64,000 nucleotides of DNA from a virus (IMGVR_UViG_3300042397_000787); one strand, 5' to 3'. Positions 31,525 through 38,260 are shown, numbered from the stretch's first letter. The notes: generated by a model from the letters alone, not told the origin. Numbers and translations are program-made.

Positions 31525-31584
31525 GACGAATCACTTTCTCTCTGACTATATTCTCATAATAGCTGATTCGCCGGTAAATGTCAA
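31525..31584 (-). promoter_or_regulatory. Early promoter/leader cassette copy 15
   Basis: TTGACA-TTTACCGGCGAATCAGC-TATTAT; AGTCAGAGAGAAAGTGATTCGTC-ATG. Confidence 0.85.
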
Positions 31585-32861
31585 GTGCTAAATTTTTCTA
31601 GATATCCCAAAAGTTGATAAACATTGACCTTGGTTTCGGTAGTCCATTGTTCTTTACTGAGGTAATGAACGGTCATACCAGGCACTTCAACGCCCTCACT
31701 ATCATTCCAGATGATTAGGTTGTTTCCGTAAACAGATAGGTCTTTCTTTAGCAGACGCTTACATGCCTTTTCAACGGGATCTACCTCAACACGGCCGTTA
31801 TGATACCACTTACCATTCTTCTCGGTCAACTTATCTTCTAGAACTCTACGTCCTACCCAAGGACCTTCTACTAGAATTTCATCACCCGTAATGATCTTGT
31901 AGTAATCATCAGGCTCTACGCCTAGCCAATTTTCTTGCCATTTGGAATGCTTTGTCACATGATTCAACAAAAGGGGAATGCCCGTATCTACAGAACCGAA
32001 GTGCGATAGAAACTCTACGTTGAAGAACTCGCAATACTCCACATATTCAGCCGGGATAGTATAGCCACTGAGATTAATCAGCAGAGTTGCATCAAACTGG
32101 TCTGAGAAATATTTTACCAAATCACGGACGACAAATGCACTACCAAAGAAAACTCTATCTACCTTCTTTTCTTTGATGAACGTAAAGAAGTTCGGCATAT
32201 CATCATAGATATTATAGTAATAGTGCTTATCTGCTACCATAAGAGCAGGTAGCAAGAAGGTCATCATACAACTAACGTGATGCATGTTTCGGGTATGACA
32301 AACTACGGATTGTGGTTCGAACTTGAAAACGCCTGTGTTTCTCTTTGAGAGGTCGAAGCAATCTTTCTGCGTGAAGTATACCGGTTTAGGTCTGCTGGTT
32401 GTTCCACTTGATGAACCACAAAGAAAGATTTCATCGGGCGAACTATAATCTTCCAACATTTTTTCTGTGACGCTATCAATTTCTGTCTCGAAAATGTTCA
32501 TTTTACAGTAGCGATTTACCATTTCCATATATGGTTCGCTTTTTGCAAGATATTCATCTACGACATGGAAGTCAATAGGATTAAATACCGAGGCTTTTGT
32601 TCGGTCAATCGTTTCAACGGCCGCTGGCTTATCAAGTAATACCAGTCTCATTGCCAATTCACCCGCTGCAAAAATAAGGGCTAGATGATTTGGGCTTACC
32701 ATGACAAGAGAAATGCCAAGGGAGTCTCCTCTCATGGCACCTCTTTTGACTAAGAGAAATTTCCATCGATCAATTAAGCTACACATTTCTTCGCGGGAAA
32801 CTACATTTCCTTTTTCATCTTCATATGAAAAATTGTCAGTCAAAATGTTCTTGTTGATCAT
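31581..32861 (-). CDS. AMP-binding (ANL) enzyme, paralog 2
   Basis: SSSGTTSRPKP, HFGSVDTG, HNGR. Confidence 0.75.
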   Translation of the reverse strand: MINKNILTDNFSYEDEKGNVVSREEMCSLIDRWKFLLVKRGAMRGDSLGISLVMVSPNHLALIFAAGELAMRLVLLDKPAAVETIDRTKASVFNPIDFHVVDEYLAKSEPYMEMVNRYCKMNIFETEIDSVTEKMLEDYSSPDEIFLCGSSSGTTSRPKPVYFTQKDCFDLSKRNTGVFKFEPQSVVCHTRNMHHVSCMMTFLLPALMVADKHYYYNIYDDMPNFFTFIKEKKVDRVFFGSAFVVRDLVKYFSDQFDATLLINLSGYTIPAEYVEYCEFFNVEFLSHFGSVDTGIPLLLNHVTKHSKWQENWLGVEPDDYYKIITGDEILVEGPWVGRRVLEDKLTEKNGKWYHNGRVEVDPVEKACKRLLKKDLSVYGNNLIIWNDSEGVEVPGMTVHYLSKEQWTTETKVNVYQLLGYLEKFST

Positions 32862-34672: not shown

Positions 34673-34861
34673 TTACTTTGAATCTGCTTGTGGAGTTGCT
34701 TCCGACGCAACAACTTCTACAGTTTCTGTTGCATTTGCTGTAGCAAGTGCAGCATCAGCCGCTGGGCCAGCAGCTTCCGATACAGATGGTGTTTCCGCGG
34801 TAGGAGCGCAAGCGGCAGTAAGAGCGGCAACTGCGAGAACCATAAAAGTCTTGATATTCAT
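34673..34861 (-). CDS. Small Ala-rich lipoprotein
   Basis: Signal peptide with LTAAC lipobox. Confidence 0.7.
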   Translation of the reverse strand: MNIKTFMVLAVAALTAACAPTAETPSVSEAAGPAADAALATANATETVEVVASEATPQADSK

Positions 34862-34918: not shown

Positions 34919-35000
34919 TGGAGCCCAAGATAGGATTCGAACCTACATCTTACTTCCAGTTACCTTTGGCTCCGTTCGTAGCGGAGAGGGATACTTGGGC
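34919..35000 (-). tRNA. Rearranged tRNA-Arg(ACG)-like RNA lacking a conventionally placed D arm
   Basis: GCCCAAG/CTTGGGC-T-CCA; TATCCCT; CTCCG-CTACGAA-CGGAG; 23-nt insert; GTAGG-TTCGAAT-CCTAT. Confidence 0.7.
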
Positions 35001-35005
35001 AAACT

Positions 35006-35078
35006 TGGAGCGACCGATGGGATTCGAACCCACTCCGTCAGCTTGGAAGGCTGAGTCCTCACCCAGGAGAACAGTCGC
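35006..35078 (-). tRNA. tRNA-Gly(TCC) with shortened D arm
   Basis: CTC-CTGGGT-GAG D arm; U73. Confidence 0.85.
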
Positions 35079-35827: not shown

Positions 35828-35833
35828 TTATAT

Positions 35834-35918
35834 TGGTGGGCCAGTGAGGTATCGATCCTCCCCCGAAGACGGACGAGATTTACAGTCTCGCTGCTAGAGC
35901 CACTAGCTTTACCGACCC
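35834..35918 (-). tRNA. tRNA-Tyr(GTA), possible 8/4 fold
   Basis: GGGTCGGT/ACTGGCCC-A-CCA; GAGG-ATCGATA-CCTC; 5-bp D stem. Confidence 0.8.
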
Positions 35919-35923
35919 AAAAA

Positions 35924-36300: not shown

Positions 36301-36534
36301 TTATTTTTTATAAGAGTTAATATATTTTTGGTATTCTTTGTTTGGATGATTTACCAATCGTTTATGGTACAGATCAATTATAGTTTTTGCGGCCGTACCA
36401 GGCAACAGATTAGGAAAAAATCCATGTATGAAACTTGCTAATGCTGCCCAAAGTAATCTCAGTCCAGCCGAATTTGCAAAAACAAAATGGCTTAAATAAG
36501 TTTCTTTGCTTTTTTCTAAGTGTTCTCTAAACAT
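36301..36534 (-). CDS. DUF6356-like protein
   Basis: FREHL...ETYLSHF..A..IHG..P. Confidence 0.65.
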   Translation of the reverse strand: MFREHLEKSKETYLSHFVFANSAGLRLLWAALASFIHGFFPNLLPGTAAKTIIDLYHKRLVNHPNKEYQKYINSYKK

Positions 36535-37982
36535 CTAAAAAATTCCCTCATTAATTCTTTATCTAACTTGACTCCAAAATAGTAATCTTTGAAATCCAGA
36601 ATTGCAAACTTATCTATACGAACTAGATTGGTTCCGTGATGAAAGAGAATTGCAGCATCTATTTCCATAACTAATTCGTTTATATCTTTATCATAAGACG
36701 AGTTGATTGCTAGATAGATTTGGTTTTCGATAATATCTATAACAACAGAAACGTTGTTATCATATTTAGCAGAAATATTTTCAAGGAATGGCAAGTCTAC
36801 TGTAGTATCATTGATACGAATGACATCGGTGCGCCCGGTATGTTTATACTCATGCCAGTGGGCTTTTACCTTCACGAACTTATCATTCGTAGCTACCGTC
36901 TTATCATAAACGGGCATGTGAACTAAGAGACCGCCTTCTTCATCGAAAGAAACGCCATAGAAAGCATCTGGTTTAAAAAACTCGGTGTTATCAAAAGTAT
37001 CGGCATTAACCGCGGTTAATCTGGACAACAGAAGTGGTCCAGCAGTTTCATTGCAACCAAAAACACTTTCTATGCTTTCAACATAACCTTCTTTCACATA
37101 TTTCGTATAATCATATGGAATGTAAGACAGAAGATCCAAACGCATATTTGGATATTTTACGCCGTGATTTTCCAACGAAGTAAAAAACTTATCGGAAAGA
37201 TCCCTATATGATAAAGTGGCATGATTGATATCTTGGTCCTTCAAAGTCAGGACTAAGTTATCAAGAATTTCCGCGCGGTGTGACATAAGATAGTGGTTCT
37301 TTACCGCATCGCTATGCAACGAAGGTAAGAAAAACACACTCAAACTACTACCGTGATTAAGGTTTCTGCTATGCAGAACGTTACCCGAAAATCTCGACGA
37401 ATTTCTCTTACACAATTCATAGAAAAATCTATGTGTATGTGTAAGTAGCTTCGGAGTATTTGTGGTACCGCTGCTGGTGCATATCATTAAAGTATCGTCT
37501 GGGTGCGGCCGAATTACAGAGATTTCATCAAATCTTTTTTGATTGTCAACTGTAATAAGACGCAAATCCTCAATGCTAAATGATTTATTGCAATAGTCTA
37601 TGAACCACGCGGATTTAGAATATGAATAACCGGCAGCATCATGAATATAGATGTTGATAGGCGACAGTAACTTAACTTTAGGATTTACCTTATCACTAGC
37701 CAGATATGCTGGCAGTTGATCCGCAATAGTAACTACCAAGGACAACTCGAAACTGGCAAAACAAAGGGCAAGATAGTCACTATCTACCACTAGTAGTCCG
37801 ATAAGAATCCTATCGCCTTTTTTGGCGCCGCATGTTTCAGTTAAAACATACTTCCAATGGTCAATCTTCTTGACCAATTCATCTTTATTAATCGAATCTG
37901 GTGTGGGGTATTCTGTTGCAAGAGGACTAATGTCTACGCTTTGATAATTGTCCGAGATAAAATCTCTCGTTAAAGTCTGCAT
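36516..37982 (-). CDS. AMP-binding (ANL) enzyme, paralog 3
   Basis: TSSGTTNTPK, VFGCNETAG, HTGRTD; start MQTLTRD after GGAGA. Confidence 0.8.
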   Translation of the reverse strand: MQTLTRDFISDNYQSVDISPLATEYPTPDSINKDELVKKIDHWKYVLTETCGAKKGDRILIGLLVVDSDYLALCFASFELSLVVTIADQLPAYLASDKVNPKVKLLSPINIYIHDAAGYSYSKSAWFIDYCNKSFSIEDLRLITVDNQKRFDEISVIRPHPDDTLMICTSSGTTNTPKLLTHTHRFFYELCKRNSSRFSGNVLHSRNLNHGSSLSVFFLPSLHSDAVKNHYLMSHRAEILDNLVLTLKDQDINHATLSYRDLSDKFFTSLENHGVKYPNMRLDLLSYIPYDYTKYVKEGYVESIESVFGCNETAGPLLLSRLTAVNADTFDNTEFFKPDAFYGVSFDEEGGLLVHMPVYDKTVATNDKFVKVKAHWHEYKHTGRTDVIRINDTTVDLPFLENISAKYDNNVSVVIDIIENQIYLAINSSYDKDINELVMEIDAAILFHHGTNLVRIDKFAILDFKDYYFGVKLDKELMREFFRCLENT

Positions 37983-38010
37983 AACATCTCCATTGTTTAA
38001 AACATAAAGC

Positions 38011-38159
38011 GAAGTGGGTGGATTCGGATATACCACCAAGCAACTAGCCAAATACCTATGTATCTATTTCGTCGCCACGACTCGTTAGCTGGTTAAGCAG
38101 GAGACCAATCCCCGAGTCTACCTTATCCCCTCTGGCAGGAGAGTATTCAGTCACACTTC
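38011..38159 (-). ncRNA. Unassigned structured RNA B
   Basis: GAAGTG/CACTTC closing stem, GACTCG/CGAGTC and GGTGG/CCACC stems. Confidence 0.55.
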
Positions 38160-38185
38160 TTACAGCCTCCGTCGAGGCTGATATC

Positions 38186-38260
38186 TGGTTGCAGGAGTCG
38201 GACTTGAACCGACGACCTTCTGGTTATGAGCCAGACGAGCTACCACTGCTCCACCCTGCG
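38186..38260 (-). tRNA. tRNA-fMet(CAT)
   Basis: C1.A72 mismatch; anticodon stem TCTGG/CCAGA. Confidence 0.9.

What the first reader, a model, noticed from the sequence alone, without database searches (positions are those of the whole stretch)
34919..35000. Rearranged tRNA-Arg(ACG): anticodon arm placed where the D arm should be
Seen: perfect 7-bp acceptor with CCA, canonical T arm and perfect anticodon arm (CTCCG-CTACGAA-CGGAG). Only 7 nt separate acceptor and anticodon arm. A 23-nt segment with D-loop-like GG (CCA-AAGGTAAC-TGG, or TCC/GGA pairing around the anticodon arm) follows the anticodon arm. It is the only Arg candidate in an array covering the other 19 amino acids, which argues for function rather than decay. 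Inference: a novel tRNA topology, perhaps evading host anticodon nucleases, or a tRNA decoy.
Basis: partly seen in the sequence, partly recalled or inferred. Interest (0 to 1): 0.85.

Follow-up and report, generated by a model that had tools for sequence, protein, structure and literature searches.

The report
Phage arginine tRNA with rewired core
This 82-base phage gene is very probably a working arginine tRNA whose D-arm parts sit in a swapped order around the anticodon arm, a non-cloverleaf layout shared by well over a hundred phage genes, missed by standard tRNA finders and not found in any paper searched.

Summary
On the minus strand at 35000..34919 lies a gene with a perfect 7-bp acceptor stem, an encoded CCA, a normal T arm and a perfect Arg(ACG) anticodon arm, but no D hairpin before that arm.

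It is not decay. I collected 120 distinct relatives from IMG/VR contigs, cultured phages (Rhizobium, Microbacterium, Xanthomonas, Caulobacter, Pseudomonas, Pectobacterium, Serratia, Salmonella) and 10 bacterial genomes. The acceptor, anticodon and T stems pair in 99-100% of cells, with two-sided changes at 16 of 17 pairs.

Covariation instead supports a short D-stem between the CCC before the anticodon arm and the AGG after it. A normal D-loop follows (A14 A15 C U G18 G19 A20 ... A21), then U48. The 15-48 pair co-varies (A-U 112, G-C 6).

Compared with a cloverleaf, block 10-21 and block 22-47 have changed places.

119 of 120 anticodons are Arg, and the ArgRS identity bases A20 and C35 are near-invariant. 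Arrays carrying this gene almost never hold an ordinary Arg(ACG).

Two first-reader claims are wrong. An ordinary tRNA-Arg(UCU) lies just outside the window, and Tyr is also missing.

Expression and charging are untested. This scan has met the same family before on other DNA.

The parts
34994..35000 (-). Acceptor stem, 5' strand (GCCCAAG, tRNA positions 1-7).
   Evidence: Pairs perfectly with 34923-34929. All 7 pairs show two-sided changes in 83 relatives, and 99.8% of cells are paired.
34992..34993 (-). U8 and A9.
   Evidence: Invariant in 120 of 120 family members. U8 is the usual partner of A14.
34987..34991 (-). U C C C U. This is the strand that acts as the 3' strand of the D-stem (canonical 22-25) plus position 26. 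It is placed directly before the anticodon arm.
   Evidence: C11-G38 is C-G in 119 members and G-C in 1. C12-G37 is C-G 99, G-C 15, U-A 4, A-U 2. The third pair is C.A here, but G-C, A-U or C-G in the other sub-types.
34970..34986 (-). Anticodon arm CTCCG-CTACGAA-CGGAG, with anticodon ACG at 34977-34979.
   Evidence: The stem is paired in 100% of cells and all 5 pairs show two-sided changes. U33, C35 and A37 are invariant in the 83-sequence alignment A1; across all 120 members U33 and A37 are invariant and C35 is present in 119.
34966..34969 (-). 4-nt linker CCAA joining the 3' end of the anticodon stem to the relocated D-stem strand. It takes the place of positions 44-47.
   Evidence: The segment from the anticodon stem to the D-loop is 7 nt long in 104 of 120 members, made up of a 4-nt linker and 3 stem bases. 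The last linker base is A in 109 of 120.
34962..34965 (-). A G G U. This is the strand that acts as the 5' strand of the D-stem (canonical 10-13).
   Evidence: It co-varies with 34988-34990. In Microbacterium phage Big4 the minimum-energy fold itself forms this stem around the anticodon arm.
34948..34961 (-). D-loop equivalent: A14 A15 C16 U17 G18 G19 A20, then AGUAAG and A21.
   Evidence: A14 is present in 120 of 120, the base after GG is A in 118 of 120, and A21 is present in 117 of 120. Length varies only where ordinary D-loops vary: before G18, and after position 20, where some relatives carry a co-varying GNRA hairpin.
34947..34947 (-). U48 equivalent, the partner of A15 (Levitt pair).
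   Evidence: The 15-48 pair is A-U in 112 members, G-C in 6, and something else in 2. It is 98.4% paired on alignment A3.
34930..34946 (-). T arm GTAGG-TTCGAAT-CCTAT.
   Evidence: 99.8% of cells are paired and 4 of 5 pairs show two-sided changes. The loop is TTCGAAT in 65 of 120 members, with near variants in the rest.
34919..34929 (-). Acceptor stem 3' strand (CTTGGGC), discriminator U, and an encoded CCA.
   Evidence: CCA is encoded in 114 of 120 members. The discriminator is U in 64, G in 40, A in 15 and C in 1.
35006..35078 (-). Ordinary tRNA-Gly(TCC), 5 nt upstream on the same strand. It is the probable co-transcript.
   Evidence: Detected by ARAGORN and Rfam. The same Gly-then-Arg order is seen in 12 of the first 15 related contigs.

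Best explanation
The gene encodes a functional arginine tRNA (anticodon ACG, presumably edited to ICG) with a rewired core.

The outer half of the molecule is ordinary: acceptor stem, T arm and CCA. In the inner half, two neighbouring blocks of a normal tRNA have changed places. A cloverleaf runs 9-[D 5' strand + D loop, 10-21]-[D 3' strand, 26, anticodon arm, 44-47]-48. This RNA runs 9-[D 3' strand, 26, anticodon arm, short linker]-[D 5' strand + D loop]-48.

The D-stem still forms, but it now encloses the anticodon arm. The D-loop still offers A14 to U8, A15 to U48, G18 G19 to the T loop, and A20 to ArgRS.

The three new chain joints are 9 to 22, 44-47 to 10, and 21 to 48. In the classical L-shaped fold each of these joins residues that are already neighbours, so the same three-dimensional shape should be reachable. 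This step is inference from the known tRNA structure.

Inferred life cycle: the gene is transcribed with the upstream tRNA-Gly. RNase P and 3' trimming release it at the encoded CCA. TadA deaminates A34. ArgRS charges it through A20, C35 and G36. EF-Tu and the ribosome then use it for CGU, CGC and CGA, which make up 66% of this phage's Arg codons.

Shown here: the conservation, the covariation, the restriction to Arg anticodons, and the complementarity with ordinary tRNAs. Not shown: expression, the fold, charging and decoding. Why the rewiring is kept is unknown.
For: (1) Family size. With extra copies, cultured phages and bacterial genomes the total is 120 distinct sequences.

(2) Helices. 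On alignment A1 the acceptor, anticodon and T stems are 99.8, 100 and 99.8% paired, with 16 of 17 pairs changed on both sides. None of 500 shuffles reached the observed values, and sliding the partner columns drops pairing to 30-49%. Alignment A3 gives the same picture.

(3) The relocated D-stem co-varies. The middle pair is C-G 99, G-C 15, U-A 4, A-U 2, with no mismatch. The triplets seen are CCC/AGG, CGG/CCG, CGA/TCG, CTC/GAG, CAC/GTG, CAG/CTG, CCG/CGG and GCC/AGC. ViennaRNA predicts this stem unaided for phage Big4.

(4) Tertiary signature. U8, A9 and A14 are invariant. The 15-48 pair is A-U 112 and G-C 6. A21 is present in 117 of 120.

(5) Identity. With the anticodon left free in the search pattern, every hit had an Arg anticodon. 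Overall the count is ACG 91, UCU 19, UCG 5, CCU 2, GCG 2, and one GAU. A20 is present in 118 of 120 and C35 in 119 of 120. A20, C35 and G/U36 are the bacterial Arg determinants (PMC9976931). The single GAU (Ile) member is also the only one with U at position 20, and it has A73.

(6) Complementarity. In 135 IMG/VR loci the ordinary Arg tRNAs are tct 30, cct 12, tcg 7, ccg 7, but acg only 4. L221 has 27 tRNAs for 19 amino acids and lacks only Arg, which two rewired genes (ACG and UCU) supply. All 10 bacterial-genome arrays carry ordinary Arg tct, cct or ccg and never acg.

(7) This phage. Its Arg codons per thousand are CGT 15.3, CGC 11.0, AGA 10.8, CGA 3.9, CGG 2.7 and AGG 1.9. Its two Arg genes, this one and an ordinary UCU, match the most used codons.
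Against: There is no expression, end-mapping, charging or structure data.

In the ACG sub-type, which includes this window, the relocated D-stem has only two invariant G-C pairs flanked by C.A and U.U. Its pairing is therefore inferred from the other sub-types, and a one-base shift in register cannot be excluded. Nearest-neighbour energy does not favour it: -19.5 kcal/mol against -19.9 without it, and -22.5 for the non-conserved CCA/UGG hairpin.

Most family members were found with patterns that fixed CCC and AAGGTAA, which inflates the apparent invariance of those bases. Alignment A3 was fitted to the model.

Related sequences are not independent events.

Zooman and 4 IMG/VR loci carry an ordinary Arg(ACG) as well, so the gene is not always the sole ACG isoacceptor.
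Confidence: 0.72

Rival explanations
1. A tRNA-like decoy or sponge. The RNA is made but not used in translation. It presents an authentic tRNA-Arg anticodon arm, with or without an acceptor end, to titrate a host anticodon nuclease, toxin or modification enzyme.
For: Phage tRNAs are known to counter tRNA-targeting defences (PMC10264068 and PMC11464382, listed). The anticodon loop CUACGAA is kept almost unchanged in 91 members. The odd core might disable ribosome use. RtcB RNA-repair ligases sit beside two of the bacterial-genome arrays.
Against: A decoy for an anticodon nuclease would not need the D-loop base A20, the 15-48 pair, U8-A14, a co-varying 7-bp acceptor stem or an encoded CCA, yet all are conserved. 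The anticodons diversify only within the Arg box. They pair up as ACG plus UCU within one phage, as decoding sets do. The gene fills the ACG slot that the arrays otherwise lack.
Confidence: 0.13
2. A working tRNA-Arg, but without a D-stem. It would resemble a mitochondrial D-arm-less tRNA with a floppy extra loop, or the first reader's CCA/UGG hairpin. The apparent D-stem covariation would be coincidental.
For: In this window's sub-type only two G-C pairs could form, and the minimum-energy fold prefers the CCA/UGG hairpin.
Against: CCA/UGG exists only in this narrow clade. Most members have ACA, AGA or UGA there. The D-stem pair 12-37 takes four Watson-Crick forms with no mismatch in 120 sequences. 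The 15-48 pair switches from A-U to G-C. The loop length varies exactly where D-loops vary.
Confidence: 0.08
3. A permuted gene whose transcript is cut and rejoined into an ordinary cloverleaf tRNA, as happens with the permuted tRNA genes of the red alga Cyanidioschyzon merolae. A phage or host RNA ligase might do the rejoining.
For: RtcB-type ligases lie next to two related arrays. This phage encodes an ATP-dependent ligase.
Against: The acceptor strands are in normal order, and the gene is 78-82 nt long in the members with a short linker (those with the extra hairpin reach 96 nt), with no leader, spacer or bulge-helix-bulge motif at the joints. Restoring the normal order would need three cuts and three ligations. 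The held part of this record has no RtcB. The relocated D-stem already pairs in cis.
Confidence: 0.03
4. A decayed tRNA-Arg pseudogene, or a chance tRNA-like sequence.
For: ARAGORN at default settings does not call it. Energy z-score against shuffled sequences is only -0.97.
Against: There are 120 distinct relatives in unrelated phages with compensatory changes in every helix. The family model scores 98.7 bits.
Confidence: 0.01

Closest known systems
Canonical bacterial and phage tRNA-Arg(ACG) (Rfam RF00005 cloverleaf), for example the ordinary tRNA-Arg(acg) of Microbacterium phage Zooman at L127:1350-1422
   Same: A 7-bp acceptor stem, CCA, a 5-bp T stem with a TTCGAAT loop, an anticodon loop CUACGAA on a 5-bp stem, U8, a D-loop motif A-R-Y-U-G-G-A with A20, and a 15-48 pair.
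   Different: The order of parts in the core. The D 5' strand and D loop come after the anticodon arm, not before it. There is no separate variable loop, and position 21 runs straight into 48. The D-stem encloses the anticodon arm. The Rfam model aligns it only by deleting the D arm, at 31.1 bits, whereas this window's 23 ARAGORN-called tRNAs score 41-78 bits.
[quoted passage not shown]
   Same: No hairpin between the acceptor stem and the anticodon stem, only a short connector.
   Different: Those tRNAs have lost the D-loop elements and are flexible. Here every D-loop element (A14, R15, G18 G19, A20, A21) and a D-stem are retained in a new order, and the T loop is fully canonical.
Permuted tRNA genes of Cyanidioschyzon merolae (PMC3728597)
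   Same: The gene order of tRNA segments differs from the mature cloverleaf order.
   Different: In the alga the whole 3' half precedes the 5' half, and processing restores an ordinary tRNA. Here only two internal blocks are swapped, the ends are normal, and nothing suggests rejoining.
Non-canonical bacterial and phage tRNAs with 8/4 or 9/3 acceptor/T branches (PMC5389517), plus tRNA-Sec and tRNA-Pyl
   Same: They are natural departures from the standard tRNA found in bacteria and their phages.
   Different: Those keep the cloverleaf order and change only helix lengths. This one changes the connectivity.
T5/BF23 'RNAX' stable RNA of unknown function (AJ604530.1 13651-14434)
   Same: The stretch L125:281-352 has a 7-bp acceptor-like stem, a T arm, and ...GTAACTGG-TGGAAGAT before it. 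It is 91% identical to positions 38-70 of this element.
   Different: There is no anticodon loop (a 5-bp hairpin with a 4-nt loop instead), no D-stem partner and no CCA. The family model gives only 31.8 bits. It looks like a degenerate relative.

Membership tests
tRNA, canonical cloverleaf (Rfam RF00005) | 7-bp acceptor stem with a discriminator base and a 3' CCA (encoded or added). | tested here: met
   GCCCAAG/CTTGGGC, then U, then CCA. All 7 pairs co-vary.
tRNA, canonical cloverleaf (Rfam RF00005) | T arm: a 5-bp stem with a 7-nt T-psi-C loop. | tested here: met
   GTAGG-TTCGAAT-CCTAT. 99.8% of cells are paired across relatives.
tRNA, canonical cloverleaf (Rfam RF00005) | Anticodon arm: a 5-bp stem and a 7-nt loop with U33 and a purine at 37. 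| tested here: met
   CTCCG-CTACGAA-CGGAG. 100% paired, and U33 and A37 are present in 120 of 120.
tRNA, canonical cloverleaf (Rfam RF00005) | A D-arm hairpin lying between position 9 and the anticodon arm. | tested here: not met
   Only 7 nt (UAUCCCU) lie there. The Rfam alignment deletes 15 model positions.
tRNA, canonical cloverleaf (Rfam RF00005) | A score above the Rfam gathering threshold of 29 bits. | tested here: met
   31.1 bits when the short region or the genome is searched. The hit was lost to the filters in the 13-kb scan.
Bacterial tRNA-Arg identity set (PMC9976931) | A20 in the D loop. | tested here: inconclusive
   The base after G18 G19 is A here and in 118 of 120 relatives. 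That it occupies the structural place of A20 is inferred from the motif, not shown.
Bacterial tRNA-Arg identity set (PMC9976931) | C35 with G36 or U36. | tested here: met
   The anticodon is ACG. C35 is present in 119 of 120, and position 36 is G or U in every Arg member.
Bacterial tRNA-Arg identity set (PMC9976931) | Charging by ArgRS. | not testable with these tools
   Needs in vitro aminoacylation, or acid-gel or periodate assays from infected cells.
Rewired-core phage tRNA-Arg/Ile family (model R1, built here) | The order acceptor - UA - D 3' strand - anticodon arm - linker - D 5' strand - UA(R)..GG(A) loop - A U - T arm, scoring well above ordinary tRNAs. | tested here: met
   98.7 bits. 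Members score 41 bits or more and ordinary tRNAs 39 or less. Note that close relatives of this sequence were in the training set.
D-arm-lacking (mitochondrial-type) tRNAs | Loss of the D-stem and of the D-loop/T-loop contact elements. | tested here: not met
   A D-stem is supported by covariation. A14, R15, G18 G19, A21 and a canonical T loop are conserved.
Permuted tRNA genes (Cyanidioschyzon type) | The 3' half is encoded upstream of the 5' half, with processing motifs at the joints. | tested here: not met
   The acceptor 5' and 3' strands are in normal order and there is no spacer.

The most novel reading that the evidence does not exclude
The rewiring is adaptive. Moving the D 5' strand and D loop behind the anticodon arm keeps the surfaces that ArgRS, TadA, EF-Tu and the ribosome read. 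It removes the backbone path, across the D arm and variable loop, that some host tRNA-targeting defence nuclease or toxin needs, or that a nuclease the phage uses against host tRNA-Arg needs. On this reading the phage carries a defence-proof arginine (and, in some phages, isoleucine) tRNA. It would be a natural non-cloverleaf tRNA that works on bacterial ribosomes.
Probability: 0.2. Interest if true: 0.92.

Novelty: new variant of a known kind. Interest (0 to 1): 0.8.

Why it matters
tRNA architecture is treated as almost invariant outside mitochondria. [quoted passage not shown]

If charging and decoding are confirmed, this family would be a natural tRNA with altered chain connectivity that bacterial translation accepts.

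That has three consequences:
- It shows which features of the core are really required: tertiary contacts rather than strand order.
- It gives synthetic biology a ready-made alternative scaffold.
- It means tRNA counts, and codon-usage arguments built on them, for many cultured phages are short by one or more Arg genes. Examples are PAK_P2, CcrColossus, XacN1, POP12, Kamaji, Zooman and RHph_I1_18, where the gene is unannotated or mislabelled.

It also raises a testable question about phage counter-measures against tRNA-targeting immunity.

Tried and rejected
It exists only in the window's close clade, so I rejected it.

I rejected the pairing. GGA reads as G18 G19 A20.

(3) ARAGORN at a lowered threshold gives a 92-nt reading that borrows CTCCAAG from the end of the upstream tRNA-Gly as acceptor strand. 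I rejected it because GCCCAAG co-varies with the 3' strand in relatives that have different upstream genes.

(4) I considered tRNA-Tyr, because Tyr is missing here and a GTA lies in the 23-nt segment. I rejected it because eight of the first 15 related arrays carry both this gene and an ordinary tRNA-Tyr.

(5) The pattern was off by one base and returned only coding-sequence hits, wasting that scan.

No read evidence was obtained, and read laying was not used.

(7) Nine literature searches and three papers read by term search found no description of this layout. The library lacks most subscription journals, so this is absence of a find, not proof of novelty.

(8) No RtcB is present in the held part of this record, so there is no link between this gene and RNA rejoining here.

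Full report
THE OBSERVATION

Read on the minus strand, window 35000..34919 gives the following order:
- GCCCAAG, the acceptor 5' strand
- UAUCCCU
- CUCCG-CUACGAA-CGGAG, a perfect anticodon arm with anticodon ACG
- CCAAAGGUAACUGGAAGUAAGAU, 23 nt
- GUAGG-UUCGAAU-CCUAU, the T arm
- CUUGGGC, the acceptor 3' strand
- U, then CCA

ARAGORN at default settings tRNAs in the window but not this one. The Rfam tRNA model reaches 31.1 bits against a cut-off of 29, and only by deleting the D arm and inserting 20 nt in the variable region.

Two of its supporting statements are wrong. The window is part of a 103,629-bp IMG/VR viral record with an estimated completeness of 59%. Ribonucleotide reductase, DNA ligase and endolysin genes are present. 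That record carries an ordinary tRNA-Arg(TCT) at C1:64827-64903, just past the window end, and no tRNA-Tyr anywhere. So this is not the only Arg gene, and 18 rather than 19 other amino acids are covered.

IS IT CONSERVED?

An exact 24-mer from the middle of the element occurs in 15 other IMG/VR contigs. There the acceptor and T stems carry compensatory changes: GCCCTAG/CTAGGGC, GCCGCAG/CTGCGGT, and GTAGG/CCTAT against GCAGG/CCTGT. The upstream neighbour also differs between contigs.

I then ran two looser patterns. One fixed CCC, the loop CTACGAA and AAGGTAA. The other left the anticodon free.

BLAST against cultured phages found unannotated copies in the following:
- Rhizobium phage RHph_I1_18 (two copies)
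- Microbacterium phages Zooman (two copies), Pumpernickel, Big4 and Cece
- Mesorhizobium phage Cp1R7A-A1
- Xanthomonas phages BUDD, X1 and XacN1
- Caulobacter phages CcrColossus and CcrPW
- Pseudomonas phage PAK_P2
- Pectobacterium phage POP12 (T4-like)
- Serratia phage Kamaji (T5-like)
- Salmonella phage 7t3, where it is labelled 'tRNA-TERM'

A scan of one genome for each of 185,579 prokaryote species found only 10 matches. All 10 were true members and all sat inside dense tRNA arrays.

A covariance model built from the 83 sequences (R1) separates members from ordinary tRNAs. Members score 41 to 102 bits and ordinary tRNAs score 39 bits or less. The model also turned up second and third copies in many loci. 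The window's record has exactly one member.

HELICES

On the 83-sequence alignment A1, the acceptor, anticodon and T stems are paired in 99.8, 100 and 99.8% of cells. 16 of their 17 pairs have changed on both sides. No shuffle out of 500 reached the observed values, and sliding the partner columns by 1-3 positions drops pairing from 92% to 30-49%. This rules out a pseudogene or a chance resemblance.

THE MIDDLE OF THE MOLECULE

The CCA/UGG hairpin is the minimum-energy fold of this sequence. Most relatives, however, read ACA, AGA or UGA where this clade reads CCA. The TCC/GGA pairing fails because GGA stays fixed while the 5' strand changes.

What does co-vary is the triplet just before the anticodon arm with the triplet just before a conserved U-A-R...G-G-A motif after it. 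The combinations seen are CCC/AGG (94 sequences), CGG/CCG, CGA/TCG, CTC/GAG, CAC/GTG, CAG/CTG, CCG/CGG and GCC/AGC.

Pair by pair, the counts are as follows (with matching counts on A3):
- First pair: C-G 119, G-C 1.
- Middle pair: C-G 99, G-C 15, U-A 4, A-U 2, with no mismatch in 120.
- Third pair: C.A in the ACG sub-type, but G-C, A-U, C-G or U.G in 21 of the other 25.

For Microbacterium phage Big4, ViennaRNA predicts this stem around the anticodon arm without any constraint.

The sequence after this stem reads as an ordinary D-loop: A14 A15 Y16 U17 G18 G19 A20. A14 is invariant. One or two bases come and go exactly where positions 16-17a vary in ordinary tRNAs. After A20 there is either a short stretch or an inserted hairpin with GNRA-type loops and its own compensatory changes, which is where positions 20a/b vary.

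The segment always ends in A-U directly before the T stem. That last base co-varies with the second loop base: A with U in 112 sequences and G with C in 6, with two exceptions. This is the behaviour of the 15-48 Levitt pair.

INTERPRETATION OF THE TOPOLOGY

Compared with a cloverleaf, two adjacent blocks have changed places.
- Canonical order: 9 - [10-13, 14-21] - [22-25, 26, 27-43, 44-47] - 48.
- Order here: 9 - [22-25, 26, 27-43, 4-nt linker] - [10-13, 14-21] - 48.

In window coordinates:
- 34991-34988 acts as positions 22-25.
- 34987 acts as position 26.
- 34986-34970 is the anticodon arm.
- 34969-34966 is the linker.
- 34965-34962 acts as positions 10-13.
- 34961-34948 is the D-loop.
- 34947 is U48.

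From the classical tRNA structure, which is established knowledge and not computed here, the following contacts are known:
- U8-A14-A21 form one layer, and the 15-48 pair stacks on it.
- A9 docks on the 12-23 pair, next to 13-22.
- Position 45 docks on the 10-25 pair, next to 26-44.

The three new joints (9 to 22, 44-47 to 10, 21 to 48) therefore join residues that are already neighbours. The usual L shape should be reachable. That last step is inference.

A tandem duplication of the internal segment, followed by loss of the outer copies, would produce such a swap. That origin is speculation.

IDENTITY AND USE

When the anticodon was left unspecified in the search, every hit still had an Arg anticodon. 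Over all 120 sequences the count is ACG 91, UCU 19, UCG 5, CCU 2 and GCG 2, plus one GAU (Ile) in an uncultured jumbo phage.

A20 is present in 118 of 120 and C35 in 119 of 120. The bacterial Arg determinants are A20, C35 and G/U36, with A, G or U at position 73 (PMC9976931). The single Ile-anticodon member is also the only one with U at position 20, and it has A73. Both are listed Ile determinants.

CCA is encoded in 114 of 120.

Phages often hold two rewired genes with complementary anticodons, ACG plus UCU. Examples are Zooman, RHph_I1_18, L119, L116, L176, L221 and L228.

In 135 IMG/VR loci that carry the gene, the ordinary Arg tRNAs found by ARAGORN are tct 30, cct 12, tcg 7, ccg 7 and gcg 1, but acg only 4. 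Arrays that cover all 20 amino acids do so with ordinary tct, cct or tcg. L221 has 27 tRNAs for 19 amino acids and lacks only Arg. The 10 bacterial-genome arrays show the same pattern.

In this phage, CGT, CGC and CGA, the codons read by ICG, make up 66% of Arg codons in long ORFs. AGA, served by the ordinary UCU gene, is the next most used.

All of this fits a decoding tRNA-Arg far better than a decoy.

WHAT IS NOT SHOWN

In the ACG sub-type the relocated D-stem rests on two invariant G-C pairs. Its register is carried over from the other sub-types, and its computed energy is neutral.

The search patterns fixed CCC and AAGGTAA, so the invariance of those bases is partly built in. The BLAST-found and model-found members, which were free of that constraint, are the ones that show the covariation.

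Why the rewiring is maintained is unknown. Escape from a tRNA-targeting nuclease is attractive but untested. The only hint is that RtcB repair ligases flank two related arrays, and this record has none.

COMPARISON WITH WHAT IS KNOWN

The closest thing is an ordinary tRNA-Arg(ACG), from which this differs in connectivity only.

It is not a mitochondrial-type D-arm-less tRNA, because all D elements are kept. It is not a Cyanidioschyzon-type permuted gene, because the ends are in normal order and there are no processing motifs. It is not an 8/4 or 9/3 'allo-tRNA', because the helix lengths are standard.

The T5/BF23 'RNAX' stable RNA contains a degenerate relative without an anticodon loop.

Nine full-text searches and three papers found no description of the layout. 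A 2024 paper states that all known bacterial tRNAs are cloverleaves (PMC11551756).

EARLIER NOTES OF THIS SCAN

I consulted these only after my own model was built. They show that the same family has been met several times on other DNA: Felix O1-type, E. coli, Streptomyces and marine phages. The reading was the same each time, Ile members were also noted, and no paper was found. These are AI notes, not independent evidence, but they agree with what I tested here.

VERDICT

The best explanation is a functional, rewired tRNA-Arg(ACG), with confidence 0.72. It is a new variant of a known kind and of high interest pending wet-lab proof.

Noticed in passing
window 38007-38179 (-): A manA RNA motif (RF01745) scores 65.1 bits against a cut-off of 55.2. 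It sits inside the tRNA array, directly downstream of tRNA-Met(CAT) at 38186-38260.
   Followed up: no
window 31581-32861 (-) and 36516-38051 (-): Two AMP-binding (adenylate-forming) enzyme genes are embedded in the tRNA array (Pfam PF00501: 34.4 bits against a cut-off of 29.9, and 26.7 bits, which is below that cut-off). Another first-stage note (e1-5727910) flags three such paralogs. Their link to tRNA biology, if any, is unknown.
   Followed up: partly
L125:281-352 (Escherichia phage BF23 AJ604530.1, inside 'rnaX'): The T5/BF23 'RNAX' stable RNA of unknown function contains a tRNA-like unit related to the 3' half of this family. It has an acceptor-like stem, GTAACTGG-TGGAAGAT and a T arm. 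It lacks an anticodon loop and CCA.
   Followed up: partly
L257:30-111 (uncultured jumbo phage LR756502.1): A member with the same rewired layout but anticodon GAU (Ile), U instead of A20, discriminator A and no encoded CCA. It lies in tandem with a UCU member at L257:114-195.
   Followed up: partly
L243:5533-5617: A rewired member whose anticodon hairpin has either an 8-nt loop (UGUUCUAA on CCUGU/ACAGG) or a 6-bp stem with a 6-nt loop. The linker to the D strand is unusually long. This could be a frameshift-type tRNA or a decaying copy.
   Followed up: no
L222:2993-3122: A 130-nt match to the family model (57 bits). A normal 5' part up to the D-loop is followed by about 50 extra bases, including a second CCTACGAAG-like hairpin, before a T arm. 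This may be a fused or disrupted pair of genes.
   Followed up: no
L014:3574-3666 and L015:650-743; also 79-nt tRNA-Met genes in L001, L003-L006, L008, L009 and L013: Related arrays hold 93-94-nt 'tRNA-Ile(tat)' calls and 79-nt tRNA-Met(cat) genes with the anticodon at position 37. So other over-long or oddly built tRNAs accompany the rewired Arg.
   Followed up: no
L259:1093-2457 (+) and L262:6606-7943 (+): RtcB-type tRNA-splicing/repair ligase genes (phrog_1075, E 2e-84 and 5e-73) lie directly beside tRNA arrays that contain the rewired Arg. These arrays are in Hoeflea and Bradyrhizobium genome contigs of 1.0 and 0.36 Mb. L259 also has a nicotinamide phosphoribosyl transferase gene.
   Followed up: partly
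window 34673-34861 (-): A 62-aa ORF with a lipoprotein-type signal (MNIKTFMVLAVAALTAAC...) starts 57 nt downstream of the element. It is conserved in the same position in L001, L002, L005 and L015. A promoter-like TTATCA-16-GATAAT lies at 34915-34888.
   Followed up: no
whole record G000 (C1:1-103629): This record has no tRNA-Tyr, although eight of the first 15 related arrays have one between tRNA-Phe and tRNA-Asp. Here that interval (35828-35923) is only 96 nt.
   Followed up: no
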